Notes under the pieces: generated by a model
What the model was told of the DNA's origin: nothing
Seen by the model: only the letters and a program-made list of their open reading frames with translations
The model's database searches: none
Part shown: one piece after another, positions 24,437-43,401 of the stretch
Numbering within the stretch: the first letter of the stretch is position 1
Layout of the letters: each line of letters opens with the position of its first letter
Translations under genes and position numbers: made by a program
Assembly (NCBI GenBank): GCA_000002445.1
Contig: CP000069.1
Location: 1,088,001 to 1,152,000 of the forward strand
DNA: 64,000 nucleotides
DNA from: Trypanosoma brucei
Taxonomy: Eukaryota
Reading direction: 5' to 3'

Positions 24437-24830
24437 AAAGCAACCCTAAGAGTGTACTTTCAATACAATCAAAAAGTAATATTGTGCTTTCAGCTGGAGT
24501 ACAGCGGAAACACACTATAGAAAGAAAACAATAATAATAAGAGTAATTTCTTTTTTAAAGAATTGTTTCACGGGGGAAACCAATAATAGTAAAATATAAA
24601 CAAATTTAAAAATCTTATAAAATTACTTATCAAAACCCCTTCAAACACTTTTAAAAAAGTCAATATCATTATATATTTGCCTAAAATTATAATAGCGAAA
24701 AAAAACGCTCAAAGTACAATAATAAAAAACCTTAAACCACAAATATTATGCCGTCAATTCGACCGACCGGCACAATCATTGAAGAAAAAACGACCGAAGA
24801 TAACACACACACAAAAAAAAATTACACCTC

Positions 24831-26910
24831 CATAAAATAGGCGTAAACATTTTTTTAAAAATGACTCAGTAATGCATCCACCAACATTTCACTTACTCCT
24901 TCTTTTCACCAGATGCCTGCTGCTGTTGTTGCTCACCCTGACCTTCTGTGCTGCTGCTACCAGAGCTACCGCTGTTCGCTGCTGCCGCCTGTTGGTACTC
25001 CGTGCGACCACATTCCATCACTGCCTTTTGCAGTTTGTCAGTAGAAGCCGACAGTTCATCCTTCGTCACGTTTGGATTCTCCATCACCTTGCGAAGTTCA
25101 GCCAAAAGGGTACGCACATTCTCCTTCTCAGCGTCCGTCACGTACTTCCATTCCGTCAGTTGTCGCTCAGCAGTGTTAGCCTGAGTCTCAGCATTGTTAC
25201 GCACTTCCACAAGCTCCCGCTTCACACGGTCAGCTTCAGCGTGCATCTCAGAGTCGCGGATCATGTTCTCGATCTGCTCCTTCGTCAACCCACCATGAGC
25301 AGTAATGGTGATGTTCTGTGTTTTCCCAGTTGCCTTGTCCTTCGCAGTTACGTGACAAATACCATTAGCATCAATGTCAAATGTCACCTCAATTTGTGGT
25401 ACACCGCGTGGTGCAGGAGGAATTCCAACGAGGTCAAACTGACCCATCATTTGGTTGTCAGATGCCATTTCTCGTTCCCCTTGGAACACTTTGATTCCGA
25501 CCTGTGTTTGGTTGTCCGCAGCAGTTGAGAAGGTTTGACTCTTCTTCGTCGGGATTGTTGTGTTCTTGGGAATCATACGTGTGAAGACACCACCAAGTGT
25601 TTCGATTCCAAGTGATAGTGGTGTAACGTCAAGCAATACAAGACCCTTCACATCACCACGGAGAACACCACCAAGTGTTGCAGCACCCAGTGCAACGGCC
25701 TCGTCAGGGTTCACACCACGGAACGGTTCGCGACCGAAGAACTGCTTCACAGCCTCCACAACCTTTGGCATACGCGTCATACCACCAACAAGCACAACCT
25801 CAGAGATTTCCTTCAGGTCAACAGCAGCGTCCTTGATGCATTGCTTGCACGGTCCAAGTGAACGTTGTACGAGCTTATCAGCAAGGGACTCAAACTTGCT
25901 GCGGCTCACCATCATCTGCACGTGCTGCGCTCCGTCCTGGTTAGCTGTGATAAACGGAAGGTTTACCTCCGTCTCCATCGTCGTCGAAAGTTCACACTTC
26001 GCCTTTTCTGCAGCCTCACGAATACGCTGCAGTGCCATCCGCTCCTTGCTCAAGTCAATTCCAGATGTCTTGCGGAATTCCTCCAGAATGTGATCAGAGA
26101 GGCAGAGATCAAAGTCTTCTCCACCAAGGTGAGTGTCGCCATTCGTTGCCTTTACCTCAAAAACACCTCCGGCAATTTCAAGTACGGAGATATCAAATGT
26201 TCCACCACCAAGATCATACACGGCAATTAAGCTGTCCTTCGTTTTGTCCAAGCCATATGCCAGTGCAGCAGCAGTCGGTTCATTCACAACACGGATCACA
26301 TTCAGTCCAGCAATCGTACCGGCATCCTTCGTTGCCTGACGTTGCGCGTCATTGAAGTACGCGGGGCACGTCACCACAGCGTTAGATACTTTGCGTCCCA
26401 GGAAGTTTTCTGCCGTTTCCTTCATCTTCTCAAGTACGAATGCACCAACTTGTGAAGGTGAGTATTGCTTCCCATTCCCATCTTGCACCCACGCATCACC
26501 ATTATTGCTCCGAATAATCTTGTAGGGCACATTCTTGATGTCGTGTTGGATGTGCTCATCATCGAAGCGACGACCAATCAGCCGTTTCACCGCGAAGAAT
26601 GTCGACTGTGGGTTCGTAATCGCCTGACGTTTCGCTGCAAGGCCAACAAGTTTTTCCTGTCCTTTGAACGCAACCACAGACGGTGTCGTCCTGAAACCCT
26701 CTGTATTCTCAAGTACGCGTGGCCGGTCACCTTCCATTACTGCAACACAACTGTATGTCGTACCCAAATCAATACCAATCACGTCACCAGTTACCTTCGA
26801 TGACTGCCACCGCGCAAACGGGGCAGACGCCAGGCACATGGGTGCGCATACACGACGGGCCAACATTTTATTACTTCACAAACTACTTCTTACCTTAGAA
26901 ATACTTTACC
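24831..26910 (-). repeat. mtHSP70 repeat unit, copy 1 (CDS plus about 60 bp shared 3' flank and about 45 bp shared 5' flank)
   Basis: Its 3' flank cataaaataggcgtaaacatttttttaaaaatgactcagtaatgcatcc is shared with copy 3 (38346-38407). Its 5' flank ttttattacttcacaaactacttcttaccttagaaatactttacc is shared with copies 2 and 3, then diverges after 26910. Confidence 0.85.
24893..26866 (-). CDS. Mitochondrial-type HSP70 (DnaK-like, HSPA9/mortalin homologue), copy 1 of 3
   Basis: 657 aa, with an N-terminal presequence-like [24 protein letters not shown]70 signatures are present: [25 protein letters not shown] and [19 protein letters not shown]-terminal substrate-binding domain and a Gly/Gln-rich tail ...[14 protein letters not shown] follow. 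Organellar/DnaK-type traits include the gap pattern and GDAWV. The protein sequence is identical in copies 2 and 3. Confidence 0.95.
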
Positions 26911-27424
26911 TCCGAGAAAATATCTAAGAAGTATGCATGTCATATGATATAGAATAAAAAGGAATATCTCATATATTGAAATCAATGAATCTCTTCTATA
27001 ATTGAAGACGTTACAACTGCGTTTCAGATATGAGTGTATATGTAATAATAAAATTCGTAGTGATGTAATAATAATGTTGTATGGATCGGCTCCCTTCACG
27101 CTCAAAAATCACCAGGTACAGTTGAACTTTGTCGCAGCACCCAACAACAATCAACAAGGATTCGTTTATAACCCTCCAGTTTTCGTTCCTCAATTGTGCA
27201 GATAAACATATAGTGAAACGATAAAACTGAAGCACCCCACACTTCACTAGAAGAAATGAGGACAATAACTTAATAATACCCCATTATCCAAATTCGTTGC
27301 ACCATTTATCAAGTAGATCACAAGCCGGTCAAATTAAAGAAACAAAAAAAGCAATAAAACATAATAGTAATGATAATAATACTCCTTGATAGTAAAAAAC
27401 GTTAAAAAATCAGTTAGAAAAAAA

Positions 27425-29562
27425 TCAGTAATGCATCCACCAACATTTCACTTACTCCTTCTTTTCACCAGATGCCTGCTGCTGTTGTTGCTCACCCTGA
27501 CCTTCTGTGCTGCTGCTACCAGAGCTACCGCTGTTCGCTGCTGCCGCCTGTTGGTACTCCGTGCGACCACATTCCATCACTGCCTTTTGCAGTTTGTCAG
27601 TAGAAGCCGACAGTTCATCCTTCGTCACATTTGGATTCTCCATCACCTTGCGAAGTTCAGCCAAAAGGGTACGCACATTCTCCTTCTCAGCGTCCGTCAC
27701 GTACTTCCATTCCGTCAGTTGTCGCTCAGCAGTGTTAGCCTGAGTCTCAGCATTGTTACGCACTTCCACAAGCTCCCGCTTCACACGGTCAGCTTCAGCG
27801 TGCATCTCAGAGTCGCGGATCATGTTCTCGATCTGCTCCTTCGTCAACCCACCATGAGCAGTAATGGTGATGTTCTGTGTTTTCCCAGTTGCCTTGTCCT
27901 TCGCAGTTACGTGGCAAATACCATTAGCATCAATGTCAAATGTCACCTCAATTTGTGGTACACCGCGTGGTGCAGGAGGAATTCCAACGAGGTCAAACTG
28001 ACCCATCATTTGGTTGTCAGATGCCATTTCTCGTTCCCCTTGGAACACTTTGATTCCGACCTGTGTTTGGTTGTCCGCAGCAGTTGAGAAGGTTTGACTC
28101 TTCTTCGTCGGGATTGTTGTGTTCTTGGGAATCATACGTGTGAAGACACCACCAAGTGTTTCGATTCCAAGTGATAGTGGTGTAACGTCAAGCAATACAA
28201 GACCCTTCACATCACCACGGAGAACACCACCAAGTGTTGCAGCACCCAGTGCAACGGCCTCGTCAGGGTTCACACCACGGAACGGTTCGCGACCGAAGAA
28301 CTGCTTCACAGCCTCCACAACCTTTGGCATACGCGTCATACCACCAACAAGCACAACCTCAGAGATTTCCTTCAGGTCAACAGCAGCGTCCTTGATGCAT
28401 TGCTTGCACGGTCCAAGTGAACGTTGTACGAGCTTATCAGCAAGGGACTCAAACTTGCTGCGGCTCACCATCATCTGCACGTGCTGCGCTCCGTCCTGGT
28501 TAGCTGTGATAAACGGAAGGTTTACCTCCGTCTCCATCGTCGTCGAAAGTTCACACTTCGCCTTTTCTGCAGCCTCACGAATACGCTGCAGTGCCATCCG
28601 CTCCTTGCTCAAGTCAATTCCAGATGTCTTGCGGAATTCCTCCAGAATGTGATCAGAGAGGCAGAGATCAAAGTCTTCTCCACCAAGGTGAGTGTCGCCA
28701 TTCGTTGCCTTTACCTCAAAAACACCTCCGGCAATTTCAAGTACGGAGATATCAAATGTTCCACCACCAAGATCATACACGGCAATTAAGCTGTCCTTCG
28801 TTTTGTCCAAGCCATATGCCAGTGCAGCAGCAGTCGGTTCATTCACAACACGGATCACATTCAGTCCAGCAATCGTACCGGCATCCTTCGTTGCCTGACG
28901 TTGCGCGTCATTGAAGTACGCGGGGCACGTCACCACAGCGTTAGATACTTTGCGTCCCAGGAAGTTTTCTGCCGTTTCCTTCATCTTCTCAAGTACGAAT
29001 GCACCAACTTGTGAAGGTGAGTATTGCTTCCCATTCCCATCTTGCACCCACGCATCACCATTATTGCTCCGAATAATCTTGTAGGGCACATTCTTGATGT
29101 CGTGTTGGATGTGCTCATCATCGAAGCGACGACCAATCAGCCGTTTCACCGCGAAGAATGTCGACTGTGGGTTCGTAATCGCCTGACGTTTCGCTGCAAG
29201 GCCAACAAGTTTTTCCTGTCCTTTGAACGCAACCACAGACGGTGTCGTCCTGAAACCCTCTGTATTCTCAAGTACGCGTGGCCGGTCACCTTCCATTACT
29301 GCAACACAACTGTATGTCGTACCCAAATCAATACCAATCACGTCACCAGTTACCTTCGATGACTGCCACCGCGCAAACGGGGCAGACGCCAGGCACATGG
29401 GTGCGCATACACGGCGGGCCAACATTTTATTACTTCACAAACTACTTCTTACCTTAGAAATACTTTACCACTTACCAACTTGTCTATTAAACCGATAAGA
29501 AGAAGCATTGAGTGGGAGAATGTTTTTTTTTTTAAACAGCTTTAGAACTTTGTTCAATAGTT
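27425..29562 (-). repeat. mtHSP70 repeat unit, copy 2 (CDS plus about 135 bp extended 5' flank shared with copy 3; 3' homology to copy 1 limited to about 27 bp)
   Basis: Its 5' flank, through ...gggagaatgtttttttttttaaacagctttagaactttgttcaatagtt, matches 40382-40518 apart from one g/a SNP (ccaacttgtc versus ccaacttatc). Its 3' flank diverges from copies 1 and 3 upstream of tcagtaatgcatcc. Confidence 0.85.
27452..29425 (-). CDS. Mitochondrial-type HSP70 (DnaK-like), copy 2 of 3
   Basis: A 657-aa protein identical to copy 1. Its nucleotide sequence differs from copy 1 at 3 positions (27629 A versus G; 27914 G versus A; 29414 G versus A), all synonymous. Confidence 0.95.
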
Positions 29563-30855
29563 TTTGCTTATTGCTTTGGTTTTAGAGTCTTCGTATCTAT
29601 GTTATTTAACTGTGTACGTCGCTTGTTTTTAATATCGTACGTTGACGCTCTCTGTCGACAGGTTGACACGATAATAAAATATTATATTGTTGAAGTGGAA
29701 GGAAAGCTTCTTCGCAACATTTCATTTCTATCTTATGTTATTACAGTTACCAGTGTGCTTTGGCTGTTGAAAGAAATGCATTATCCTTTTTTTAAAAAAA
29801 GGGTGGTGTCTTTACAACATTCTCATCAGTTTTGCGAGGGAAGCGGCGACACACATGTCTTTTTCACAACGGCGGATGTCCCGTTGTTCCTTTTCCATAC
29901 CTTGGGCTGGATAAAGAATAATTTAAACAGATTTCATAATTTGCTGATAGGTCCCCCTTGTCATAAGGGTTGTGTGTTATCCAGGCAGCTATCGTGAGGT
30001 AACTGTAGCAATTAAGGCGGCGCGAGCGTGTATTGTAAACATAACGAATACCTCTTTCGCAATATGCCCGCGCATCCCTTAGAAAATTTGCGTGGTTTGC
30101 GAAGGCTGGAGCATCATTATACATTCTTCCTGGCGGCTTCCTTAAATTAATGTCCGTGATATCTCTTTGAGTGTCATTGTGCGACTCACTACAATTAGTA
30201 AGTGAGAGTAGCTGCAGTAAGTCATGAGGGCATCCTTTTTACCATTCCGGTACCTTCCCCTTGCATTGAAGTTTTAGGTTATCCTGTCATCCTGCACACA
30301 AACGAAACCCCCAAACCAAACGCCTTCGCCGTAGCCGTCGCATCTGCGTAGGAATATATTTACCCGCATTACTACGAAAACGATAAGAAGAAAATGGGAT
30401 ATGAACACGACACACAGGAAGAGAACCACTGATATTTCGTAGACGGTGTTACACGAATAACCAGTTGTATTCAGTGGCATAATTCGGAGACTTGCCACGA
30501 AGCACATGAAGAGGCCATTGACCAAATGTACAGAGTCTATTGGCATGTCGTAAACTTGCATGAGAATAAGAGAATGCTTTCTAATTAACGTGAAAATGTG
30601 AAAACGCTGGACTTACTGGACCCGCGCTGCACACTCGTGAAAAGTCACACAACTCTACTCGGCACGCGTATCTTGTTTTCTTAATTATTCTACGGCTCGC
30701 CAAGAATTCAGATAACGAGCGCAGTTTCTACCATTGATGCCGTCGTTTCGTGGAAAAGGCAGAAACAAGTCGATGCTCTCGTCGCAAAACAATACAAAAT
30801 AAACCCACAATCGCCTGCGACAGATTCACAAGAACGCACCACAGAGAACAAAACC

Positions 30856-31872
30856 TCAAATAGGAATGGCTAGTATGTGTGAAACACCGTATTTAGTCGA
30901 GGAGAGAGCAGCCCATAAATCACTCTGTTGCAACATAACGGCAGGCAGAGACCATGATTCGGTATCAGGGACCGTTACGGATGAGAGCTTCTCCGCTCCG
31001 CTTGAGGGTGGCCCAGACTCATTCGTAAGTAACGAATGCAAATCCCAGTACCTCGTGGGTTTGGGGTCCTCCTTCAAATCGAGACACGTCAGCTTCGCAG
31101 AGGTGTCTCCTGCCGCTATGTAGCCATTCCGCATCGCCACAGACCTGATAGGGGCCCGCTCTTTACCGGTTGAAAATGCTTCTTCCCTAACATTCCCCTC
31201 TAAGCACCTCAATACAAACACTCGACCACTAACAGTGCCGGTTGCCACCGCGCCAGTATCCGGGGAGGAGGTAATACTGATAATCTGGTCAGGAACGGCT
31301 AGAATCACCACGGGTTCGTGTCCACGTCTCACGTCATACAACATGGCTTTACCATCGTAAGCGGCAACAACAAGTGTGTTCTGAGTGAGTGCGGTACCAC
31401 CGACGACGCAGGGCTTTGGAATGTGGAGGTTGATTCGCGCGGTCGATGTCTCCAAGTCAATTATCTGTGCATCAGTGGGAGAGCAGGCCAGAAGAAGTGA
31501 AGGTTCATTCGGTACCTCCTTGAGTGAGAGCACAGCAGCTTTGTTCTGAAATGAATAGTGTTGCACCACATTCTTCGAGTGACGGGAGACAAGTACAATA
31601 TCGCCACTTGACGATCCAGTAGCAAAGCACGAATCATAAGAAACGAAACTCGAGGAAATGACGGCACCCTCACCAAAATTACCATGAGGAAAAGTTTCTA
31701 CATGCGTAACTGCTTGTCTTGCTCCGCATTGGGCGTGTTGTAAGTCTCCCATGTGAAATATGTGAGCCCCATTCATCATTGTGCTTGCAAGGCAGGCGTC
31801 CTCATTGCTTGCTTGCGTTAGGCACGATATACAGCCTTGCACCTCAAAGCAGGACGATCTCTCTAGCTTCAT
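30856..31872 (-). CDS. Hypothetical protein, possibly a beta-propeller (WD-repeat-like)
   Basis: A 338-aa ORF. Weakly repeated motifs of the kind seen in WD-like blades (GDIVLVSRHSKNVVQHYSF; TLVVAAYDGKAMLYDVRRG; VATGTVSGRVFVLRC; YIAAGDTSAKLTCLDL) recur at roughly 40-50 aa intervals. There is no canonical GH...WD, so the call is tentative. Confidence 0.45.
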   Translation of the reverse strand: MKLERSSCFEVQGCISCLTQASNEDACLASTMMNGAHIFHMGDLQHAQCGARQAVTHVETFPHGNFGEGAVISSSFVSYDSCFATGSSSGDIVLVSRHSKNVVQHYSFQNKAAVLSLKEVPNEPSLLLACSPTDAQIIDLETSTARINLHIPKPCVVGGTALTQNTLVVAAYDGKAMLYDVRRGHEPVVILAVPDQIISITSSPDTGAVATGTVSGRVFVLRCLEGNVREEAFSTGKERAPIRSVAMRNGYIAAGDTSAKLTCLDLKEDPKPTRYWDLHSLLTNESGPPSSGAEKLSSVTVPDTESWSLPAVMLQQSDLWAALSSTKYGVSHILAIPI

Positions 31873-32230
31873 TGTTTCCGGTTGCGGCTACCGGTTACTG
31901 CTTACAGCCAAACAGCAATACCTAGTAGTAGAAAGAATATCACAGCTATGCCGCTTTCGTGATGGGCCAAGAAAACTGGAGGGGAGAAATAGAAAATACG
32001 CAGTGGGAAGGAATTGAGATAAGCAACAGAACATATCGGTAACGCGCAACCTCCGCAACACTGAGGAAAGAAACGGAAAACGCACTCGCACACACGCACG
32101 AACATGATACTCTCACATAGTCCTCATTCGGCTCGGACATTCAACACAACCGCAGGCATACTATTCTTAAGCCAGGAGCCTCTTCACACCACCCCAATGG
32201 AGAGTTTCCAGCAACATACTTCGCTACTTA

Positions 32231-32917
32231 TTAACAGTGTTCTTTGTCTAATGGGGCCCTGCCACACGAACGCTTTTTGAAAAACTTGAATGGGTAAAAG
32301 ACAATCCCGATAATCGAACCTATTGCAACGGCTGCAGGAAGGTGAATGGGGGAGTAAGCGAGTGCACATTTGGTGTTGAGTCGCACAAACTCGCGGATCC
32401 GTTCTCCCCATGTACGCTCGTTGAACAGCGCCCACATGCCTGGATAGAAAAGATGGGAAGCTAAAAGACACGACAACCCCGGGACCTGCGCACTGATAGG
32501 TCCGAGCCAAGGCATAAAACCATGCATCGCCTTCTCATTTATTACACCAGGCTCAATAATGTAGTAGTAGGAGAGCCAACTGGCAATAAAGTTTACGTAA
32601 AAGAAATCGCTCATCATGCGCGGGATCAGTGTCTTCTTCGTGTCCTGTGTCTGCGACAGCTTCAGCAATGGAGAAGAGGGGGCGGAAACACAAAATGGAA
32701 CCGCAAAGACCGTTGCACAAATGGTTGTGCGTATGATGCGTTTAAATGTCAAATAGCCAGCAACCTCCTGGCGTTGTGCCGGCTCATCGTATTTCGTCTC
32801 TTTTCCTCTCGGAAGCCTAATGTACGGAATATCGCCTTCAGTCTTAACTATGAGCATCGTCACGTTGCGGTTTCGACAGACGGCATTCACCCTTTGATGC
32901 CATGGAAAGAAAAGCAA
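32231..32917 (-). CDS. Hypothetical small multi-pass membrane protein
   Basis: An ORF of 228 aa, or 208 aa from the internal MLIVKTEGD. Hydrophobic segments are TTICATVFAVPFCV, FFYVNFIASWLSYYYII and LPAAVAIGSIIGIVFYPF. No family was assigned. Confidence 0.4.
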   Translation of the reverse strand: MLFFPWHQRVNAVCRNRNVTMLIVKTEGDIPYIRLPRGKETKYDEPAQRQEVAGYLTFKRIIRTTICATVFAVPFCVSAPSSPLLKLSQTQDTKKTLIPRMMSDFFYVNFIASWLSYYYIIEPGVINEKAMHGFMPWLGPISAQVPGLSCLLASHLFYPGMWALFNERTWGERIREFVRLNTKCALAYSPIHLPAAVAIGSIIGIVFYPFKFFKKRSCGRAPLDKEHC

Positions 32918-33337
32918 ACAAGCAAAAAAAAAGGTGGAATGTACTCAGAGATGGAGAGAAACATGAAGAGGAGCGGAACAGAAATGGGGTCGATAATATC
33001 AAAGAGAGTAAAGGGAAGAAAGAAGAGAGGCAACTGACTAACAGGTGAGAGGAAAATTGTCGCACCGTCTTTTCATTAACAACGGAGACAGCAAACGCAC
33101 AGACAAACCGTCAGCCCTTTCTTTCACACCGACACACACACACAAATATATGTATATATATGTATATATCATTTTCTGCATTTCATCGTACCATAATAAA
33201 GTAGCAAATGTTTACAAAATATAAATTACAGCAATAAATAACTAGCGATTAAAGAACAAATACACCTACTCATGACGACTGCACAGTGACATTCACACGC
33301 GGCTATACAGCAGTAAACCCGAAAACACAAGTTAAGC

Positions 33338-34777
33338 TTAATCCACTTCCTCCATACGCAGCACCTTGCACCAGTGGGTAGCCTGCCCAGCCCGTCGCTG
33401 AATTTTATCAGTGTCAAGAAGTTTGGGGTCTACATCGATTAGCTCACTGGTTTCTTCCGTGCATAACTCAAGTTGACGGACTCTGTAATGGAAAGTTTCA
33501 TCCACAGACTTGGTGAAAAAGAGGGAAACGCACGCGTTCATCAGCACACCTCTACAGTCGCGTAATATCCTCTGCGCCTCCTGAAGAACAGTGAGCGTTC
33601 TGTCAAACGACTCCTTCCGGTCTCGAAGTTGGGCGAGTTCGCGCGCTCGCTCCAAACCTTTTCCCAGTGATTGTTCCTCAAGGACGAGGCTCCTCTTGTG
33701 GTTGGTCCATCTTGTGTAATAACTGAGAAAGATCTTTTCAGCGGTGACTTCTCCCACTGATTCACCCCTCTGACACTGATAATACATGTTGTTATGCTGC
33801 ACCCAGGGACCAAGACAAACCCAACAGTATTCGTGGCGGCACCTTGTGCACGTCATATGATTGCAGCCCTTGTCCTTTTCGATCGGGACATGACAATTTG
33901 GACACTCTTTGGTATTCGACTGAATGTACACTAATGAAGGTTCGTACTCTTTAATCAACTTCCTCCACTTCTCTAGCATCTCACAGGTTGCGGGGGCATG
34001 GGGCTTCCCAGTGCATTTGAAACAGAACTGCAGATCACACCTCGCACAACAAACGTCCGGTCCGGACCGCCGAGGGACAGCGACTCGAACGATTCCTTCA
34101 CACGGCAATTCGTTGGGGCAACAACGCATGCTTGGGTGGTTGCTAAGGTACTCGGTGAGAAACCGTTGCTGGGCACGCTTTAATTCCTGCGGCGGCAGCA
34201 ACAATTCCAAAGCGCTCATTGTTACGAGACTACAGCACCCTTGTTTGGGACACCGTCTCTCCAGTAAGTCCTGAGATTTGTTGACGGCGTACACAAGATT
34301 TCTTCTCAAACATTCCGCGCAGAAAAAGTGATGGCACCTCGCGAGCGCCACTCCGTCACCAACACTAACACTTTCCTCGCATACAGGGCACACAATTGGT
34401 TCAGTATTTTTTACCAATGGCGGACCCTGTCCAACACCATAAGTAATACCTGTGGTTGAGTAGTCTGTTATATTCAGTTGACAGTTGATGCTACTTTGTG
34501 AATTCATGTAGTTCTCAAGCGTGTCGTCATCCAATTTCCAGTTATAGTGTCGAAGAACCAAAAACGCAGCCTCTTCTGGGAGGTCAAGGATTTCACTAGC
34601 CTTCTCCACGTCATCGTGGAGTTCCTTCATAGCATCACGAGCCGAAACCGTAGTAAAGATGGTTAAAATAGTGGACATGCCTTCCGGTTGCCCCGCCATA
34701 CCAAAGTGGGCCACGTCAAACGACTGATCGTCGTGATCACAAACATCATCGATATTGCCACACGAATTAACGTTCAT
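33338..34777 (-). CDS. RBR (RING-between-RING) E3 ubiquitin ligase, Ariadne-like
   Basis: Acidic N-terminus with a UBA-like stretch EEAAFLVLRHYNWKLDD. RING1: CPVCEESVSVGDGVALARCHHFFCAECLRRNL. IBR: RCPKQGCCSLVT...CCPNELPCEGIV...CARCDLQFCFKCTGKPHAPATC. RING2/Rcat, which holds the catalytic Cys: KECPNCHVPIEKDKGCNHMTCTRCRHEYCWVCLGPW. A C-terminal helical Ariadne-like domain follows. Confidence 0.8.
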   Translation of the reverse strand: MNVNSCGNIDDVCDHDDQSFDVAHFGMAGQPEGMSTILTIFTTVSARDAMKELHDDVEKASEILDLPEEAAFLVLRHYNWKLDDDTLENYMNSQSSINCQLNITDYSTTGITYGVGQGPPLVKNTEPIVCPVCEESVSVGDGVALARCHHFFCAECLRRNLVYAVNKSQDLLERRCPKQGCCSLVTMSALELLLPPQELKRAQQRFLTEYLSNHPSMRCCPNELPCEGIVRVAVPRRSGPDVCCARCDLQFCFKCTGKPHAPATCEMLEKWRKLIKEYEPSLVYIQSNTKECPNCHVPIEKDKGCNHMTCTRCRHEYCWVCLGPWVQHNNMYYQCQRGESVGEVTAEKIFLSYYTRWTNHKRSLVLEEQSLGKGLERARELAQLRDRKESFDRTLTVLQEAQRILRDCRGVLMNACVSLFFTKSVDETFHYRVRQLELCTEETSELIDVDPKLLDTDKIQRRAGQATHWCKVLRMEEVD

Positions 34778-35076
34778 AAATTTTTTAAAAAATTAAACAC
34801 TGGGTGACCGAGTACTCTTACCCTCCACACACTAATTTTGCTCTTACGAAGTCCTAAGGGGTGTAAAAGAGTTACAAAATGGATTTTCTACATGTTAAAA
34901 CTAAAAGTAGGAACACATAACAACCTCATTAAATGCCCTCATACTGGTAAGCAAGGGTAAATGCAAATAGACCCCAACATGCAGATGAATAATACAAAGA
35001 TAGCGACGCGTTCTCTTAAACGTATTCGTTAAAGAGGTGGTGGAGGGGGCTGTTAATATAAGATAACAAAAACTGC

Positions 35077-37464
35077 TTACTTCATCGACACACTTTGCCC
35101 AAGTGCCCATCGTTTATACCATTCCACGTCCATGGGGCTGACGCGGGGCCTCACCTTCTGCAACGCGGCATCAACGTTTTCGGTAGAAATGTACGGACTC
35201 TTTACCCCAGCCGTCACACACTGAAAGGCTGCTTCCTTGATAACTGCAACAACCTCGGCGCCAGTGTAACCCTCCGTCCGAGCAGCCACATAATCCGCAT
35301 CGAGTTCCGGCGATAAAGGTATATTTCGAAATTGAATGCTGGCAATCATCTTCCGCTCATTGATGTCCGGCAGCCCAACATAAACCTTTCGGTCTATGCG
35401 ACCAGGACGTAGAACCGCCGGGTCTATGTTATCAGGGCGATTTGTGGCGGCGACAAACACCAATGCATCTGTACCCTCGTTGAGAGCAGCAGGAAGACCG
35501 TCTAGTTCGGTTAAAAATTGAGAAATAACACGATCTGCCACACCACCACGACCACGATGTCCGCACATACCATCAAGCTCATCGATGAAGACAACACATG
35601 GTGCGGCGGCACGAGCACGCGCAAAAATGTCACGAACTGCCTTCTCGCTGTCACCGACCCACTTTGAGAATACCTCAGGCCCTTTAACCGAAACGAAATT
35701 CATTTTAGACTCATTGGCGAGCGCCTTCGCCAACATTGTTTTGCTGCACCCCGGGGGACCGTACAAGAGGACTCCTTTCGGTGGTGAAAGATTGAACTTA
35801 CGAAACACCCACTGCTGCTTTCCGAGGCACCATGCCACACAGTCCTGCAGCGTCTTTTTGGCCACTTCGCTACCCCCAATATCACTCCATTTTACGGACG
35901 GAATAGAAACCTGAAACTGTCTAAGAGCAGATGGAGGCACAATCTTTATCGCCTCTGTTATAGAGGAATCGGTTATTTCAGTCTTCCCAGTTTCCTTAAA
36001 TGCTTCAATGGATGCCACGTCAAGTAATCGAACGAGGTCCCGCTGAGTGAAGCCATTCGTCGACTCAGCCGCTAGAGAAACAAAACTTGCCGTAACTTTC
36101 GCTTGCCCCCCAAATGTTTTCAGACGGTTTTGAAGGAACTCGCGACGCTCCTCTGCGGACCCAGGTGCCAGTAATTTTACCTGCTCACCAAAACGGTCGT
36201 ATGTTAGTAGTGACCGTGGTAAAGACTCCACAGAAGCAGCAGAACCCACAACGCGTACATCCAACTGACGAATCCGAATGTCATCTAGTTCACTAGCCAG
36301 AGTGGACGCTAACAGTCCCTTTGCCCACCCAGATTCAACAACTCCATTGTCTCCAGTGGCACAGACAAGATGAAGGTCATCAATGATTACCGTGGACGGG
36401 GCGCCAGCTTTCGCGCGAACAAATACTTCTCGAAGAACGGTCGAAGAGGAGATATCACACATGTTTCCCTGAGACAACACCTCAACACTCACCGTTTCCA
36501 CCTGCCGTGAGTGAAGAGTTGCAGCCTCATGCGCCTCCCTCCTCAAAAAGTAACTCTTACCGGTGCCTGTATCCCCCAACACGAGTAAGTGAGATTGCTT
36601 TTTTTCCACCCCAACCGGCACAGGTTCGCCATCAAACAACTCAGTTTCACAGACTGTACCGCGCCCAATATACCTAATCTTCGACCCATCGATAAGAATC
36701 CCCAAATCGATTTGTCGGACATCCGTATCGCCCTCAACGCATCCCTCAGCTACGGATTTACAACAACATTCCAACACATCAACGTAATATGGAACCGTGC
36801 CAACATGCAAGGCAGCTCGCATCCCGCGGAACACCAGCCGCCGTTGATACCGCCGGCGAAATGCAGAACACACTTGAAGGAATGGAATGTCGGTGGAGCT
36901 TGTCAACCCATCTGCACCAACAGCGATTCGTGCTTCCTTTGTTATTTCCAAAACCAGAGACGAGAGCGGTATTAGAGGACAGATGTCCTTAGCAACAGAT
37001 ACAGTCACCTGTTTCCCACTGAATGCAGCAGCCACTTCATCAGCAAGCATAATGGTCTGTGAAGCACATGAAGAGGAACAAAATGCCTCTACGAATGCCC
37101 GAACAGATCCATCACCTTCCACACACAACACCGCTCCACTAATGATTCCTAACTCCTTTAAAGAGTGAGGCGAAAGCCGTGCCTCATTGGAGGGCAAACA
37201 ACTATCTGAACGGACATTCAGGGAAACTGCCACGAAGCTTTTACTTCCTTCACTGCCACAATTAACGTCGGCAACCTTCGCCCCGGACAACACTGAGGTA
37301 GTGGATTTCATGTCATTGTGTCGCATATGTTCACCGCGTTGATTAGGGATTTTTAAGCGCGCATCTCCACCAGCACCGCCACCGGAACCATCATGATGGT
37401 TATTTTCATTGTTGCTACCACGCCGCCCTTCACGGTGGTTCGGCCGCCTTGCTTTGGCGCCCAT
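35077..37464 (-). CDS. Type II AAA+ ATPase with degenerate D1 and canonical D2 (CDC48/NVL/AFG2/PEX1-6 family)
   Basis: The D1 P-loop is degenerate (LLVLGDTGTGKSYFLRREAH). D2 is canonical: Walker A GVLLYGPPGCSKTMLAKALANE, Walker B CVVFIDELDG, SKWVGDSEKAVRDIFARAR, and second region of homology/Arg-finger ATNRPDNIDPAVLRPGRIDR. A basic Gly-rich N-terminus (MGAKARRPNHREGRRGSNNENNHHDGSGGGAGGD) precedes D1. Confidence 0.85.
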   Translation of the reverse strand: MGAKARRPNHREGRRGSNNENNHHDGSGGGAGGDARLKIPNQRGEHMRHNDMKSTTSVLSGAKVADVNCGSEGSKSFVAVSLNVRSDSCLPSNEARLSPHSLKELGIISGAVLCVEGDGSVRAFVEAFCSSSCASQTIMLADEVAAAFSGKQVTVSVAKDICPLIPLSSLVLEITKEARIAVGADGLTSSTDIPFLQVCSAFRRRYQRRLVFRGMRAALHVGTVPYYVDVLECCCKSVAEGCVEGDTDVRQIDLGILIDGSKIRYIGRGTVCETELFDGEPVPVGVEKKQSHLLVLGDTGTGKSYFLRREAHEAATLHSRQVETVSVEVLSQGNMCDISSSTVLREVFVRAKAGAPSTVIIDDLHLVCATGDNGVVESGWAKGLLASTLASELDDIRIRQLDVRVVGSAASVESLPRSLLTYDRFGEQVKLLAPGSAEERREFLQNRLKTFGGQAKVTASFVSLAAESTNGFTQRDLVRLLDVASIEAFKETGKTEITDSSITEAIKIVPPSALRQFQVSIPSVKWSDIGGSEVAKKTLQDCVAWCLGKQQWVFRKFNLSPPKGVLLYGPPGCSKTMLAKALANESKMNFVSVKGPEVFSKWVGDSEKAVRDIFARARAAAPCVVFIDELDGMCGHRGRGGVADRVISQFLTELDGLPAALNEGTDALVFVAATNRPDNIDPAVLRPGRIDRKVYVGLPDINERKMIASIQFRNIPLSPELDADYVAARTEGYTGAEVVAVIKEAAFQCVTAGVKSPYISTENVDAALQKVRPRVSPMDVEWYKRWALGQSVSMK

Positions 37465-38345
37465 GTCGCTGTTATGCGTGACTTAACCCTTGCACGCAAC
37501 TAATGGTACGTACTGGGTTTAACACGCTCTACACCACAAAGGCGATTACACACAGGCACCAAAAAAAAAGGTACAAACAACGAAAAAAAACATATATGGA
37601 GAAAATTTGAGATGAAAAACACAGAAATATATAACAATACCTGTCTAAAGCAACGCATAAGAACATGGCAAAGGCGAAAGTAAACAACCACATCCCAATT
37701 TATCAAAGAAAAAAAATTATACTTTAGTTCTTTATTTACGACCGGTGGTTTCTCTTCTCTTCAATTTTTATAATGTCAAAAACATGAGTGACAATAATAT
37801 TTAAAATAATGGTAATAATATGAACGACAGTAATAATAGGACGTTGAGAACAATCTCAGCTTCCTTTCCCTCCCTAGACAATCTCACATGCTCACAAAAA
37901 TCATGAACACCAAACAAAATCCAATCACACATTCTGCGTGTCTCTTTTCTATTTTATCGGCTGAAACACCGAACAAAATCAAAAAAATAATAATAATAAT
38001 CAACCTCTTTCCTTCTTTTTAACCGCCACCTCTGGACAAAAAAATTATTATCTCAAAAACTTTCAACAAACATAGCTTTAACACAAAGCTACCAAACATC
38101 ATACCAAACAACAACACAACCACGAATATACTGGGAAAAATTAAACCCTCAACACAGCACATAAAAAAAATTCAAAAACAAAAAACACACCAAATAATAC
38201 CGAACATCGAAAGGAGAAAAAACATTTGTTCTTACCAACAAGAAAAGAATAAAATAAAACACAAAAATCAGCATGTGTTTTTAAAAACAAAAAAATAAAA
38301 ATAAAAAAAGAACAAAATCAAAAGTAAAAAATATATAGAATCCTG

Positions 38346-40518
38346 CATAAAATAGGCGTAAACATTTTTTTAAAAATGACTCAGTAATGCATCCACCAAC
38401 ATTTCACTTACTCCTTCTTTTCACCAGATGCCTGCTGCTGTTGTTGCTCACCCTGACCTTCTGTGCTGCTGCTACCAGAGCTACCGCTGTTCGCTGCTGC
38501 CGCCTGTTGGTACTCCGTGCGACCACATTCCATCACTGCCTTTTGCAGTTTGTCAGTAGAAGCCGACAGTTCATCCTTCGTCACGTTTGGATTCTCCATC
38601 ACCTTGCGAAGTTCAGCCAAAAGGGTACGCACATTCTCCTTCTCAGCGTCCGTCACGTACTTCCATTCCGTCAGTTGTCGCTCAGCAGTGTTAGCCTGAG
38701 TCTCAGCATTGTTACGCACTTCCACAAGCTCCCGCTTCACACGGTCAGCTTCAGCGTGCATCTCAGAGTCGCGGATCATGTTCTCGATCTGCTCCTTCGT
38801 CAACCCACCATGAGCAGTAATGGTGATGTTCTGTGTTTTCCCAGTTGCCTTGTCCTTCGCAGTTACGTGGCAAATACCATTAGCATCAATGTCAAATGTC
38901 ACCTCAATTTGTGGTACACCGCGTGGTGCAGGAGGAATTCCAACGAGGTCAAACTGACCCATCATTTGGTTGTCAGATGCCATTTCTCGTTCCCCTTGGA
39001 ACACTTTGATTCCGACCTGTGTTTGGTTGTCCGCAGCAGTTGAGAAGGTTTGACTCTTCTTCGTCGGGATTGTTGTGTTCTTGGGAATCATACGTGTGAA
39101 GACACCACCAAGTGTTTCGATTCCAAGTGATAGTGGTGTAACGTCAAGCAATACAAGACCCTTCACATCACCACGGAGAACACCACCAAGTGTTGCAGCA
39201 CCCAGTGCAACGGCCTCGTCAGGGTTCACACCACGGAACGGTTCGCGACCGAAGAACTGCTTCACAGCCTCCACAACCTTTGGCATACGCGTCATACCAC
39301 CAACAAGCACAACCTCAGAGATTTCCTTCAGGTCAACAGCAGCGTCCTTGATGCATTGCTTGCACGGTCCAAGTGAACGTTGTACGAGCTTATCAGCAAG
39401 GGACTCAAACTTGCTGCGGCTCACCATCATCTGCACGTGCTGCGCTCCGTCCTGGTTAGCTGTGATAAACGGAAGGTTTACCTCCGTCTCCATCGTCGTC
39501 GAAAGTTCACACTTCGCCTTTTCTGCAGCCTCACGAATACGCTGCAGTGCCATCCGCTCCTTGCTCAAGTCAATTCCAGATGTCTTGCGGAATTCCTCCA
39601 GAATGTGATCAGAGAGGCAGAGATCAAAGTCTTCTCCACCAAGGTGAGTGTCGCCATTCGTTGCCTTTACCTCAAAAACACCTCCGGCAATTTCAAGTAC
39701 GGAGATATCAAATGTTCCACCACCAAGATCATACACGGCAATTAAGCTGTCCTTCGTTTTGTCCAAGCCATATGCCAGTGCAGCAGCAGTCGGTTCATTC
39801 ACAACACGGATCACATTCAGTCCAGCAATCGTACCGGCATCCTTCGTTGCCTGACGTTGCGCGTCATTGAAGTACGCGGGGCACGTCACCACAGCGTTAG
39901 ATACTTTGCGTCCCAGGAAGTTTTCTGCCGTTTCCTTCATCTTCTCAAGTACGAATGCACCAACTTGTGAAGGTGAGTATTGCTTCCCATTCCCATCTTG
40001 CACCCACGCATCACCATTATTGCTCCGAATAATCTTGTAGGGCACATTCTTGATGTCGTGTTGGATGTGCTCATCATCGAAGCGACGACCAATCAGCCGT
40101 TTCACCGCGAAGAATGTCGACTGTGGGTTCGTAATCGCCTGACGTTTCGCTGCAAGGCCAACAAGTTTTTCCTGTCCTTTGAACGCAACCACAGACGGTG
40201 TCGTCCTGAAACCCTCTGTATTCTCAAGTACGCGTGGCCGGTCACCTTCCATTACTGCAACACAACTGTATGTCGTACCCAAATCAATACCAATCACGTC
40301 ACCAGTTACCTTCGATGACTGCCACCGCGCAAACGGGGCAGACGCCAGGCACATGGGTGCGCATACACGACGGGCCAACATTTTATTACTTCACAAACTA
40401 CTTCTTACCTTAGAAATACTTTACCACTTACCAACTTATCTATTAAACCGATAAGAAGAAGCATTGAGTGGGAGAATGTTTTTTTTTTTAAACAGCTTTA
40501 GAACTTTGTTCAATAGTT
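38346..40518 (-). repeat. mtHSP70 repeat unit, copy 3 (dispersed copy carrying both the copy-1-type 3' flank and the copy-2-type extended 5' flank)
   Basis: Its 3' flank at 38346-38407 matches 24831-24892 of copy 1. Its 5' flank at 40382-40518 matches 29426-29562 of copy 2. It is separated from the tandem pair by four unrelated genes. Confidence 0.85.
38408..40381 (-). CDS. Mitochondrial-type HSP70 (DnaK-like), copy 3 of 3
   Basis: A 657-aa protein identical to copies 1 and 2. At the three polymorphic sites it carries G (38585), G (38870) and A (40370). It therefore matches copy 1 at two sites and copy 2 at one. Confidence 0.95.
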
Positions 40519-40948
40519 GTTGATATATGTTATTGCTTTCTGTTGTTTTTTTTTAATTTAGTTGTGTAGATAAAAAAATTGTGACACATACTTGGAAAAT
40601 AGTATCTTATTTGTTTTCCTTGGCAGTCACTAGTGTAACGTTGTTTTTCTTGTTAAGCTTAACAGGTTTTAACGTTATACTGTGTTACTGCACGAACAAG
40701 CATTGAAAGAATAATTCTTTTTTTTCTAAGTGACTGAATTTTTTCTTTTTCCAACTGCCTTACCATTCATAAAGAGGTTGTGGAAACTTTTTGTTCGTCT
40801 CTTTGTGGCGGTGTGTTTCGGTACAAAATTGTTTCAAGCACCCCACTTCTGACCTGTGAGCAACTGTTGTATTAAACGCTCCTTTACTTGTAATTGTTTC
40901 ACCTGTTTTGGTGACATCACTTGCTCTTCAAACTCTTTGTTGTTATTT

Positions 40949-42319: not shown

Positions 42320-43401
42320 CCGCACAAGTGCAACTCCGGGTGCTTCCAGTATCCGATGTATATTTCCAAACAGCGCGAGAGAAATGCAGATATAGAAAGC
42401 GGAGAAGAAAAGGCAAGCATTCAGACAGATCACCAATTGTACGTGTTTATGTTGCGAAAAAGAAAAGAAGACGGAATTAACCATTGTGATGTTAAACAGA
42501 GGAAGTGAACAAATTTATTATCTGCTGTTGCTTAATATTGATATTTGCAATCATAATAAAAGGGGTTTCCACTTCATTAGAGTATCGCATCACGATGTGC
42601 TTCACCTACTTCGCGTCCCCTTCATTTTGTGTACTCCCAACGTGCGCCAACCATCACCAAACCCCTTCATGAGGAAACTGCAGTGGAGGCTCACTAATGT
42701 CCAAAGTGTATCCTACAATAAACGAAACAAACAAACAAACATAATAGTAGGAGTAAACGCCTCTTCAGTATTTAGTTTGTACACCAACATAATGAGACAA
42801 GGAATTGCGTGCCGGATACCTCCTCCCACAACCATTCCATTCACTCAATCACACATAAATGAACACAAATACTTTTGCATCCGATTAATACTCTACTCTA
42901 CTACAACTCTTTATTGCCTCACCAACTGTGATGTTGAATCGATGGCGACGAAAGTTGATGACGGCTAAACCGTGTTAACGACAAAATCATCAGCTTCATT
43001 GAAATAACCTTCAGTGAAATGAGAGATGAATGGTGAAGAAAAGAAGCACATATACATTTTCTGTAGCGGCACGCAAATATGTTAACCGGAAGGACGCTCA
43101 TCTCTGCAAGACAACGAAAAAAGAAATGAAAAGTAACATACAAAAATAGACAGCACATTAACTCGCTTCTTCCTTCATTGTCCCAATAACTAATTGACAG
43201 AAAGCAACCTGTTAATGCAAACACCAAGGGTATGGAAAAAAAAAATTGTATAAATCATACATGTACATAACCAACAAGACGAACTGCTGCACGAAAACTC
43301 CGAAGAGAAAATACAGGGGAGACAACAACGCAAGGACTTCATTTTTACTCTCTCTTTTTTTTGTCTAACTAAAAAAATAAAACATAAAACATCTGCTATC
43401 A

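What the first reader, a model, noticed from the sequence alone, without database searches (positions are those of the whole stretch)
24831..40518. Mitochondrial HSP70 as a split array: tandem pair plus a third identical copy 9 kb away with four unrelated genes inserted between
Three ORFs (24893-26866, 27452-29425, 38408-40381) encode an identical 657-aa DnaK-type HSP70 with a mitochondrial-style presequence. Copies 1 and 2 are head-to-tail, separated by about 585 bp. Copy 3 lies downstream on the plus-strand map, which is upstream in transcription. Between it and the pair sit a two-ring AAA+ ATPase, an RBR E3 ligase, a small membrane protein and a WD-like protein. Other chaperone arrays in this lineage are arranged as uninterrupted tandem runs, so a split arrangement implies either a segmental duplication of one unit or insertion of a 9-kb block into a triplet. 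The copy number and the unique junctions are also a common source of assembly collapse.
Basis: seen in the sequence. Interest (0 to 1): 0.55.

Follow-up and report, generated by a model that had tools for sequence, protein, structure and literature searches.

The report
Known split mitochondrial HSP70 gene cluster
The three identical mitochondrial HSP70 genes are real, but they are the annotated Trypanosoma brucei genes Tb927.6.3740, Tb927.6.3750 and Tb927.6.3800, and the split layout is an old, conserved trypanosomatid arrangement whose copies are most likely kept alike by gene conversion, so the finding is largely ordinary.

Summary
Three minus-strand ORFs (24893-26866, 27452-29425, 38408-40381) encode the same 657-aa mitochondrial HSP70 and differ at only 3 synonymous sites. 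A two-ring AAA ATPase, an RBR E3 ligase, a small hydrophobic protein and the WD-like kinetochore protein KKT15 lie between copy 3 and the tandem pair.

The window is T. brucei brucei TREU927 chromosome 6. The genes are Tb927.6.3740, Tb927.6.3750 and Tb927.6.3800, already annotated and cited as three identical copies.

The same block sits between mtHSP70 sites in T. b. gambiense, T. b. equiperdum, T. vivax, T. cruzi and T. melophagium. In L. braziliensis it does too, without the E3 gene. Copy number per site varies: 1|2, 1|1 or 2|1.

Copies cluster by species, not by position. Within a genome they are 99.5-100% identical, whereas 31-53% of same-amino-acid codons differ between species. Even between T. 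brucei subspecies, genome-specific changes are shared by both sites. The best explanation is an ancient two-site arrangement homogenised by continuing gene conversion that barely extends past the coding sequence.

The split is not an assembly artefact. Copy number at each site is variable or uncertain. Interest is low.

The parts
24827..26910 (-). mtHSP70 repeat unit, copy 1. It is the downstream site's second gene (D2). By gene order it is one of Tb927.6.3740/3750; the assignment of gene number to copy was not tested. CDS 24893-26866.
   Evidence: ORF. Identical 657-aa product. Repeat extent from self-BLAST. Exact match to AAZ11933/AAZ11934/AAZ11939. Full-length Pfam HSP70 hit, E = 1.6e-266.
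26911..27424 (-). Unique 514-bp core of the 585-bp intergenic spacer between the tandem pair. It is not repeated elsewhere in the window.
   Evidence: Self-BLAST boundaries. Local alignments of the flanks show only 27-44 nt shared next to the CDS. Exactly this spacer plus one CDS (2559 bp) is absent from the T. b. equiperdum assembly.
27425..29566 (-). mtHSP70 repeat unit, copy 2. It is the downstream site's first gene (D1). CDS 27452-29425. It shares 141 nt of 5' flank with copy 3.
30856..31872 (-). KKT15, a WD40/beta-propeller-like kinetoplastid kinetochore protein of 338 aa. It is the last gene of the intervening block.
   Evidence: Sub-threshold Pfam beta-propeller hits. Exact match to AAZ11935, which the T. 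equiperdum record names 'kinetoplastid kinetochore protein 15'.
32231..32857 (-). Small hydrophobic protein, 208 aa counted from the first ATG, with no Pfam family.
   Evidence: hydrophobic 19-mers at ORF residues 61-79 and 189-213. A 185-219-aa gene occupies the same position in the other species.
33338..34777 (-). RBR-type (Ariadne-like) E3 ubiquitin ligase, 479 aa.
   Evidence: Pfam IBR x2 plus RING. Exact match to AAZ11937. Orthologues at 44-53% identity were found only in Trypanosoma. The gene is absent from the Leishmania block.
35077..37464 (-). Two-ring AAA+ ATPase, annotated as a valosin-containing protein homologue, 795 aa. It is the first gene of the block.
   Evidence: Pfam AAA x2 plus AAA_lid_3. 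Exact match to AAZ11938.
38342..40522 (-). mtHSP70 repeat unit, copy 3, the upstream site (U1). By gene order this is Tb927.6.3800. CDS 38408-40381. It shares its 5' extension with copy 2 and its 3' extension with copy 1.
40949..42484 (-). Upstream flanking gene, a 511-aa PAP-associated-domain protein. It is the conserved 5' neighbour of the upstream HSP70 site in Trypanosoma.
   Evidence: Exact match to AAZ11940. A 431-511-aa gene occupies the same position in T. b. gambiense, T. b. equiperdum, T. vivax, T. cruzi and T. melophagium.
23468..24436 (-). Downstream flanking gene, a DnaJ-domain protein. The ORF is 322 aa from GTG; related records annotate 305-336 aa. It is the conserved 3' neighbour of the downstream HSP70 site.
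   Evidence: Pfam DnaJ. A DnaJ gene follows the array in every species examined.

Best explanation
This is the annotated mitochondrial HSP70 locus of Trypanosoma brucei brucei TREU927 chromosome 6 (Tb927.6.3740, Tb927.6.3750, Tb927.6.3800).

It is not one array that was interrupted. It is an ancient two-site arrangement inside a single polycistronic transcription unit. One mtHSP70 site lies between a PAP-associated-domain gene and an AAA ATPase gene. The second lies between KKT15 and a DnaJ gene. Each site carries one or more head-to-tail copies, and the number depends on lineage and strain.

The copies at both sites are kept almost identical by recurrent non-reciprocal homologous recombination (gene conversion). 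The conversion tracts cover the coding sequence plus only about 30-140 nt on either side in T. brucei. As a result the three genes make one protein from mRNAs with largely different untranslated regions.

Shown here: the identity of the locus, the conserved split, the varying copy number, clustering by species rather than by position, and the sharing of strain-specific substitutions between the two sites.

Inferred: that gene conversion is the mechanism, rather than repeated re-duplication. Also inferred: that the extra copies serve dosage for a highly expressed, essential chaperone in an organism without gene-specific promoters; that the different UTRs allow copy-specific post-transcriptional control; and that reciprocal crossover between the flanking copies, which would delete the block, is removed by selection.
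For: Identity of the locus. The HSP70, KKT15, E3, AAA and PAP-domain proteins match GenBank AAZ11933/34/39, AAZ11935, AAZ11937, AAZ11938 and AAZ11940 of T. b. brucei TREU927 exactly. The consecutive accession numbers reproduce the layout. The literature gives three copies, 100% identical at protein level, under these gene IDs (PMC4337576; PMC7064343).

Conserved split. The layout is HSP70 site, then AAA, E3, small protein, KKT15, then a second HSP70 site, then DnaJ. It occurs in:
- T. b. gambiense and T. b. equiperdum
- T. vivax, 2|1
- T. cruzi, 2|1 in two gap-free assemblies
- T. melophagium, 1|1
- L. braziliensis, as HSP70, AAA, small protein, KKT15-like, then about 24 kb not fetched, then HSP70 copies and DnaJ
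L. major is listed with LmjF.30.2460-90 plus LmjF.30.2550 (PMC4943205; PMC4488524).

Concerted evolution. Upstream and downstream copies within a genome are 99.5-100% identical at nucleotide level, and only 0-1.4% of same-amino-acid codons differ. Between species 31-53% of such codons differ, with the same values whether U is compared with U or with D. A neighbour-joining tree groups copies by species. In L. braziliensis the upstream copy and a downstream copy differ by K2P 0.0005.

Continuing exchange. Among TREU927, DAL972 and IVM-t1, 6 of the 11 variable CDS sites are genome-specific and shared by both sites. Site 1797 is shared by TREU927 U1 and D2 but not by D1, which lies between them.

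Tract limits. Identity stops 44 or 141 nt upstream and 27 or 66 nt downstream of the CDS, and the flanks beyond are unrelated. In the other species the first copy of each site shares 31-568 nt of 5' flank.

The gene is highly expressed and up-regulated in procyclic forms (PMC2926603; PMC2443814). It is essential (PMC4337576).
Against: - No conversion event was observed directly. The inference rests on sequence patterns in consensus assemblies of diploid genomes.
- DAL972 has N gaps inside both sites. From my own knowledge, not checked here, it was assembled with help from the TREU927 reference. Its copies are therefore weaker evidence.
- Copy number in TREU927 could not be checked against reads. 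A close relative's assembly has only one downstream copy.
- In Leptomonas pyrrhocoris a pyridoxal-dependent decarboxylase gene, not KKT15, lies directly upstream of a three-copy array. The arrangement is therefore not universal in the family, or the block has moved there.
- No bodonid or Paratrypanosoma locus was obtained, so the age of the split beyond the Trypanosoma/Leishmania ancestor is unknown (one search was uninformative).
Confidence: 0.85

Rival explanations
1. Recent event in the T. brucei lineage. Either one HSP70 unit was duplicated segmentally to a site 9 kb away, or a 9-kb four-gene block was inserted into an originally contiguous triplet.
For: Near-identity of the three copies is what a very recent duplication would give. 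The repeat unit is short and has sharp ends.
Against: The same block with the same flanking genes separates two HSP70 sites in five further Trypanosoma genomes and in L. braziliensis. Copy numbers per site are 1|1, 2|1 or 1|2, so no triplet is ancestral. The block genes themselves are diverged orthologues: E3 44-53% and AAA 56-60% identity between species. That fits old residence at this position.
Confidence: 0.03
2. Assembly artefact. The third copy, or the second copy of the pair, is a misplaced or duplicated repeat in the TREU927 assembly. The true locus is a simple tandem array or has a different copy number.
For: Repeats of 2 kb at 99.9% identity are hard to assemble. DAL972 and T. cruzi CL Brener have N gaps and truncated HSP70 models exactly here. 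DAL972 shows a partial second copy at the upstream site next to a gap. The T. b. equiperdum assembly has one downstream copy, exactly one 2559-bp unit fewer than TREU927.
Against: The split, with an HSP70 gene on both sides of the block, is present in gap-free assemblies of T. b. equiperdum, T. vivax, T. cruzi (two strains), T. melophagium and L. braziliensis. In TREU927 each copy has its own unique flanks joined to unique neighbouring genes, and each carries private synonymous variants. The stated confidence applies only to 'copy number at one site is wrong'. For 'the split is an artefact' it is below 0.02.
Confidence: 0.1
3. Birth-and-death rather than conversion. The two sites are old, but copies are repeatedly lost and re-created by duplicative transposition of a whole HSP70 unit from one site into the other. 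Similarity would then reflect recent re-seeding, not tract-wise conversion.
For: Copy number per site changes quickly, even between T. brucei subspecies. T. vivax carries a 130-bp 5' remnant of a further copy after its downstream gene. Whole units therefore do come and go.
Against: Replacement would have to land at exactly the same position relative to unique flanks in every lineage. The boundaries of identity differ between pairs in a mosaic way: copy 3 shares its 5' extension with copy 2 and its 3' extension with copy 1. Single substitutions are shared between non-adjacent copies only (site 1797). Both patterns are expected from conversion tracts. Mechanistically, homologous replacement of a resident copy is itself gene conversion.
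Confidence: 0.07

Closest known systems
T. brucei mtHsp70 genes Tb927.6.3740, Tb927.6.3750 and Tb927.6.3800 (Týč et al. 2015, PMC4337576; von Känel et al. 2020, PMC7064343)
   Same: It is the same locus. The protein sequences match the GenBank entries of TREU927 exactly. The literature reports three copies, 100% identical in protein, with somewhat different predicted 5' and 3' UTRs.
   Different: Nothing differs in the sequence. The paper calls them 'a single tandem array' and does not mention the four intervening genes. This analysis adds that the split is conserved across species.
Leishmania HSPA9 (mtHSP70) locus on chromosome 30, LmjF.30.2460-2490 plus LmjF.30.2550 (Drini et al. 2016, PMC4943205; Requena et al. 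2015, PMC4488524)
   Same: The family is the same and so is the two-site layout. One copy lies upstream of AAA, the small protein and the KKT15-like gene. An array lies downstream and ends next to a DnaJ gene. Copy number is variable. The upstream copy and most downstream copies are nearly identical.
   Different: The Leishmania block lacks the RBR E3 gene. The downstream array is larger; read depth suggests up to 17 copies in L. major. Its last copy (635-636 aa, no poly-Q tail) has diverged and keeps orthology across species (PMC4943205). T. brucei has only one protein form.
Tandem gene arrays of T. brucei under concerted evolution (Jackson 2007, PMC1855330)
   Same: The copies are same-strand in one polycistronic unit. 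Coding sequences are homogenised by gene conversion. Terminal copies have curtailed or different UTRs.
   Different: In Jackson's survey, copies separated from their array by unrelated genes (Tb24.4/5, Tb109c.4) had diverged and kept orthology across species. Here the separated copy stays homogenised with the others in every lineage examined. In addition, the intergenic spacer is not part of the repeat.
Human HSPA9 (mortalin), yeast Ssc1 and bacterial DnaK
   Same: The protein family is the same. The best solved-structure matches are human mitochondrial Stress-70 (E = 1.4e-250), then E. coli DnaK. The match to the Pfam HSP70 model is full length.
   Different: Those are single genes, or in yeast diverged paralogues. 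Here there are several identical genes.

Membership tests
Mitochondrial (DnaK-type) HSP70, HSPA9/Ssc1 group | Full-length HSP70 architecture: nucleotide-binding plus substrate-binding domains | tested here: met
   Pfam PF00012, residues 29-624 against profile positions 1-598 of 599, E = 1.6e-266.
Mitochondrial (DnaK-type) HSP70, HSPA9/Ssc1 group | Closer to mitochondrial/bacterial HSP70 than to cytosolic or ER forms | tested here: met
   PDB search: human mitochondrial Stress-70 scores 836 bits and E. coli DnaK about 726 bits, against BiP 590 and Hsc70/HSP70-1A about 581.
Mitochondrial (DnaK-type) HSP70, HSPA9/Ssc1 group | N-terminal mitochondrial presequence and mitochondrial location | tested here: inconclusive
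   The sequence has a 25-residue N-terminal extension before HSP70 homology starts, with 4 R/K and no D/E. No targeting predictor was available. PMC4337576 treats the protein as the mitochondrial HSP70 and reports mitochondrial phenotypes (kDNA loss, reduced aconitase activity) on its depletion; I did not read a localisation experiment for it.
Mitochondrial (DnaK-type) HSP70, HSPA9/Ssc1 group | [quoted passage not shown] | tested here: met
   The C-terminus reads ...[17 protein letters not shown]. The criterion is quoted.
Annotated genes Tb927.6.3740/3750/3800 | Exact identity of products and neighbours with the TREU927 record | tested here: met
   Exact-sequence look-up returns AAZ11933.1, AAZ11934.1 and AAZ11939.1 for the HSP70. 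It returns AAZ11935, AAZ11937, AAZ11938 and AAZ11940 for the neighbours, on a 1,618,915-bp contig. The link from accession to Tb927 gene number rests on the literature and on my own knowledge of gene order.
Trypanosomatid tandem gene array under concerted evolution (sensu Jackson 2007) | Same-strand copies whose coding sequences cluster by species, not by position | tested here: met
Trypanosomatid tandem gene array under concerted evolution (sensu Jackson 2007) | Copies contiguous, with no unrelated genes between them | tested here: not met
   Four unrelated genes (30856-37464) separate copy 3 from the pair. Only copies 1 and 2 are tandem.
Trypanosomatid tandem gene array under concerted evolution (sensu Jackson 2007) | Repeat unit includes the intergenic spacer, i.e. 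internal spacers match one another and the terminal UTRs | tested here: not met
   Only 27-141 nt next to the CDS are shared. The 514-bp core of the spacer is unique.
   The same layout occurs in T. vivax, T. cruzi, T. melophagium and L. braziliensis.
Assembly artefact | Split absent from independent gap-free assemblies | tested here: not met
   The split is present in N-free loci L001, L016, L004, L006, L007, L009 and L015. Copy number per site in TREU927 itself could not be tested against reads.

The most novel reading that the evidence does not exclude
The two-site layout may itself be under selection and not just tolerated. Two near-identical direct repeats have bracketed the same AAA, small-protein and KKT15 block (plus the E3 gene in Trypanosoma) since before Trypanosoma and Leishmania diverged. 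They could act as a built-in recombination cassette allowing reversible amplification or excision of the block, as direct repeats are said to do in Leishmania (from memory, not checked here). Alternatively, the distant copy could act as a protected donor that repairs the array by conversion. Either reading would explain why this separated copy escapes the divergence that Jackson (2007) saw for other separated array members.
Probability: 0.1. Interest if true: 0.45.

Novelty: already known. Interest (0 to 1): 0.18.

Why it matters
There are practical consequences. The three genes cannot be told apart by their coding sequence, so RNAi, tagging and knockouts hit all of them, as published work already assumes. 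Only the UTRs distinguish them. Copy number at each site differs between strains and assemblies, so read mapping and dosage estimates at this locus need care.

The modest new point concerns evolution. The split predates the Trypanosoma/Leishmania divergence, and the copies are still being homogenised across 9-11 kb of unrelated genes, even on the timescale of T. brucei subspecies. That makes this a clean natural example of gene conversion between nearby but separated sites, and a counter-example to the tendency of separated array members to diverge. It does not open a new question or reveal a new kind of system.

Tried and rejected
- Homologue searches with the RBR E3 and the AAA ATPase, meant to reach Leishmania and bodonids, returned only Trypanosoma orthologues. 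Leishmania was reached through the HSP70 search and a cluster member instead.
- The L. mexicana look-ups covered the block and the downstream array but not the region upstream of the AAA gene. They could not show the upstream copy there.
- The Leptomonas pyrrhocoris look-up showed three copies next to DnaJ, with a decarboxylase gene rather than the block directly upstream. I did not find where the block lies in that genome.
- An outgroup attempt with a 73%-identical HSP70 from an unidentified metagenome eukaryote gave unrelated neighbours and says nothing about the age of the split.
- The cluster listing for the Leishmania HSP70 contained 'AAA family ATPase-like' proteins. I suspected fused gene models. 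BLASTP showed no similarity to HSP70, so I treat this as a quirk of the listing.
- I looked for residual similarity between the 585-bp spacer and the other flanks to reconstruct how the tandem pair arose. Only the CDS-proximal 27-121 nt align, and weakly. The origin of the spacer stays open.
- The DAL972 second downstream copy (P0094, 91% protein identity) looked like a divergent paralogue. At DNA level it is 96% identical with many gaps and frameshifts next to an N run. I treat it as poor sequence.
- Jackson 2007 (PMC1855330) does not mention this locus in its main text. Its supplements were not searched.

Full report
**1. The observation**

They translate to the same 657-aa protein. At DNA level they differ only at CDS positions 12, 1512 and 1797, all synonymous.

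A self-BLAST of the window finds nothing else repeated at this level. It gives these unit boundaries:
- 24827-26910 = 38342-40425 (99.90%)
- 27425-29566 = 38381-40522 (99.81%)
- 24866-26910 = 27425-29469 (99.85%)

The two neighbouring copies are 585 bp apart, CDS to CDS. All 22 ORFs of at least 250 aa in the window are on the minus strand. The region is therefore one transcription direction, and copy 3 is upstream.

Between copy 3 and the pair lie four genes:
- a protein with two AAA domains and an AAA lid
- a RING-IBR-IBR (RBR) ligase
- a 208-aa protein with no Pfam match and at least two hydrophobic segments
- a WD40-like protein that the T. equiperdum record names kinetoplastid kinetochore protein 15

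The HSP70 matches the Pfam model end to end. Among solved structures it is closest to human mitochondrial Stress-70, then DnaK, ahead of BiP and the cytosolic forms. It has a basic, acid-free N-terminal extension. It also has the C-terminal poly-Q tail that PMC4943205 calls diagnostic of trypanosomatid mitochondrial HSP70.

**2. Where the window comes from**

An exact-sequence look-up places the HSP70 and four neighbouring proteins in T. brucei brucei TREU927 on a 1.62-Mb contig. AAZ11933, AAZ11934 and AAZ11939 are the HSP70 copies. AAZ11935, AAZ11937 and AAZ11938 are three of the four block genes (the small protein's ORF as queried had no exact match, presumably AAZ11936), and AAZ11940 is the upstream neighbour. 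The order of accession numbers reproduces the layout seen here.

The literature cites the genes as Tb927.6.3740, Tb927.6.3750 and Tb927.6.3800. It states that the three copies are 100% identical in protein and have somewhat different predicted UTRs (PMC4337576; PMC7064343). That paper calls them a single tandem array, which is loose wording given the four genes between them. The gene is essential, highly expressed, and higher in procyclic forms. The arrangement is therefore already in the reference annotation.

**3. Is the split real, and how old is it?**

I fetched the DNA around orthologues of the E3 ligase and of the HSP70 in other genomes. The same order recurs: PAP-domain gene, HSP70 site, AAA, E3, small protein, KKT15, HSP70 site, DnaJ gene.

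| Genome | Upstream \| downstream copies |
|---|---|
| T. b. gambiense DAL972 | 1 plus a fragment \| 2 |
| T. b. equiperdum IVM-t1 | 1 \| 1 |
| T. vivax | 2 \| 1 |
| T. cruzi, gap-free Berenice and TCC assemblies | 2 \| 1 |
| T. cruzi CL Brener | truncated models next to gaps |
| T. melophagium | 1 \| 1 |

In the L. braziliensis M2904 assembly LS997629.1 an HSP70 gene is followed by AAA, a small protein and a KKT15-like gene. About 24 kb of the record between the two fetched loci was not retrieved. After it come further HSP70 copies that end next to DnaJ. L. mexicana shows the block directly upstream of its downstream array. L. major is listed with LmjF.30.2460-90 plus LmjF.30.2550. The Leishmania block lacks the E3 gene, and the E3 search found orthologues only in Trypanosoma.

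The loci from T. b. equiperdum, T. vivax, T. cruzi Berenice and TCC, T. melophagium and L. braziliensis contain no N runs. The split is therefore neither an artefact nor a T. brucei novelty. It goes back at least to the common ancestor of Trypanosoma and Leishmania.

One exception was seen. In Leptomonas pyrrhocoris a decarboxylase gene, not the block, precedes a three-copy array.

**4. Why copies separated for so long are still identical**

Within each genome the upstream and downstream copies are 99.5-100% identical in nucleotides. T. vivax has no differences at all. Only 0-1.4% of codons for the same amino acid differ.

Between species 31-53% of such codons differ. The figure is the same whether upstream is compared with upstream or with downstream. 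A neighbour-joining tree of the codon alignment groups all copies by species. In L. braziliensis the upstream copy differs from a downstream copy by K2P 0.0005. Only the last Leishmania copy (635-636 aa) groups across species, in line with PMC4943205.

The pattern holds even inside T. brucei. Of 11 variable CDS sites among TREU927, DAL972 and IVM-t1, six are specific to one genome and present at both sites. Site 1797 carries the same state in TREU927 copies 3 and 1 but not in copy 2, which lies between them.

This is the signature of concerted evolution by gene conversion acting across the block and still continuing.

**5. Extent of the homogenised tract**

In T. brucei identity ends 44 nt (copy 1) or 141 nt (copies 2 and 3) upstream of the ATG. 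It ends 27 nt (copy 2) or 66 nt (copies 1 and 3) after the stop codon. Beyond that the flanks do not align. Copy 3 thus shares its 5' extension with the first gene of the pair and its 3' extension with the last.

In the other species the first gene of each site likewise shares 5' flank: 568 nt in T. cruzi, 88 in T. melophagium and 31 in T. vivax. The three T. brucei genes therefore give the same protein from mRNAs with mostly different UTRs. Whether this matters for regulation was not tested.

**6. Copy number**

The T. b. equiperdum assembly is collinear with the window, except that exactly one 2559-bp unit (CDS plus spacer) is missing at the downstream site. DAL972 has the downstream pair. 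Its second copy is of poor quality and lies beside an N gap. A partial second copy lies at the upstream site beside another gap. T. vivax keeps a 130-bp 5' remnant of a further copy after its downstream gene.

Copy number per site is therefore variable, mis-assembled in places, or both. Read data for TREU927 were not available to check the count of three.

**7. Explanation and rivals**

The best-supported account has three parts. The arrangement is an ancient two-site one within a single polycistronic unit. Tandem gain and loss occur at each site in a lineage-specific way. Recurrent gene conversion, limited essentially to the coding sequence, keeps all copies alike. Extra copies plausibly serve dosage where genes have no promoters of their own.

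Mis-assembly is excluded for the split but not for the copy number. Whole-unit loss and re-seeding cannot be fully separated from conversion. However, the mosaic boundaries and the single shared substitutions favour conversion tracts.

**8. Comparison with what is known, and verdict**

The locus is the annotated T. brucei mtHSP70 locus, and its Leishmania counterpart has been described with the same split gene numbering. Concerted evolution of trypanosome gene arrays is well documented (PMC1855330).

One mildly unusual point remains. In that survey, copies separated from their arrays by unrelated genes had diverged and kept orthology. Here the separated copy remains homogenised in every lineage examined. 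I found no paper that states this explicitly, but it is a small addition to known biology.

Novelty: already known. Interest: low.

Noticed in passing
window 23468-24436 (-); also L003 15551-16471, L004 18287-19204, L006 17583-18518, L009 16740-17675, L010 20587-21597, L012 12678-13688, L013 12903-13901: A DnaJ-domain gene (305-336 aa) lies immediately downstream of the mtHSP70 array in every trypanosomatid examined, including Leptomonas, where the upstream block is not adjacent. An HSP70 next to a J-protein could be a coincidence of conserved synteny or a functional pairing. It does not carry either of the two J-protein gene IDs seen in the papers read (mtHsp40 Tb927.9.12730, TbPam27 Tb927.10.13830).
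   Followed up: partly
L010 1823-7172; L015 13964-19780: The RBR E3 ligase gene of the intervening block is present in all Trypanosoma species examined. It is missing from the block in L. mexicana and L. braziliensis, where the order is AAA, small protein, KKT15-like. The homologue search also found no Leishmania orthologue.
   Followed up: partly
L004 17961-18090: In T. vivax the downstream HSP70 copy is followed, 600 bp later, by a 130-bp stretch 98.5% identical to the 5' end of the gene (15 nt of flank plus the first 115 nt of CDS). It is a remnant of a further tandem copy just before the DnaJ gene.
   Followed up: partly
L002 12517-13561; L003 12281-15129: T. b. gambiense DAL972 has 100-nt N gaps inside both HSP70 sites and a partial second copy at the upstream site. 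Its downstream second copy is only about 96% identical, with many indels; the gene model is 658 aa at 91% protein identity. This is probably poor sequence, not a divergent paralogue.
   Followed up: partly
L001 11975-15598: No gene was called for the AAA ATPase in the T. b. equiperdum assembly, although the DNA is collinear with the window at 98.9% identity with 32 gaps. This is probably indel errors breaking the frame.
   Followed up: no
L010 17995-19905; L012 10001-11908; L013 10001-11911: The last downstream mtHSP70 copy in Leishmania and Leptomonas (635-636 aa, no poly-Q tail) is diverged from the other copies: K2P 0.06-0.17 within a genome. The two Leishmania versions group together across species, so this copy seems to have escaped homogenisation. 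That agrees with Drini et al. 2016 and with the two Leishmania mtHSP70 forms described in PMC4488524.
   Followed up: partly
cluster listing (P0193, P0197, P0198): Leishmania 'AAA family ATPase-like' proteins of 807-1049 aa are listed as members of the 90%-identity HSP70 cluster, yet have no detectable similarity to HSP70. This looks like a quirk of the cluster table. Their lengths also vary widely against 795 aa in T. brucei.
   Followed up: partly
window 2477-12145 (-): There is a very long ORF of 3222 aa on the same strand. It was not examined.
   Followed up: no
L017 3578-5563; L018 3383-5368: In an unidentified metagenome eukaryote (ENA ERZ25074155) the same 661-aa mtHSP70 lies near the ends of two contigs of 279 and 360 kb. 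The same two upstream neighbours occur in a different order and orientation, and the downstream genes differ. This may be a duplicated or rearranged region.
   Followed up: no
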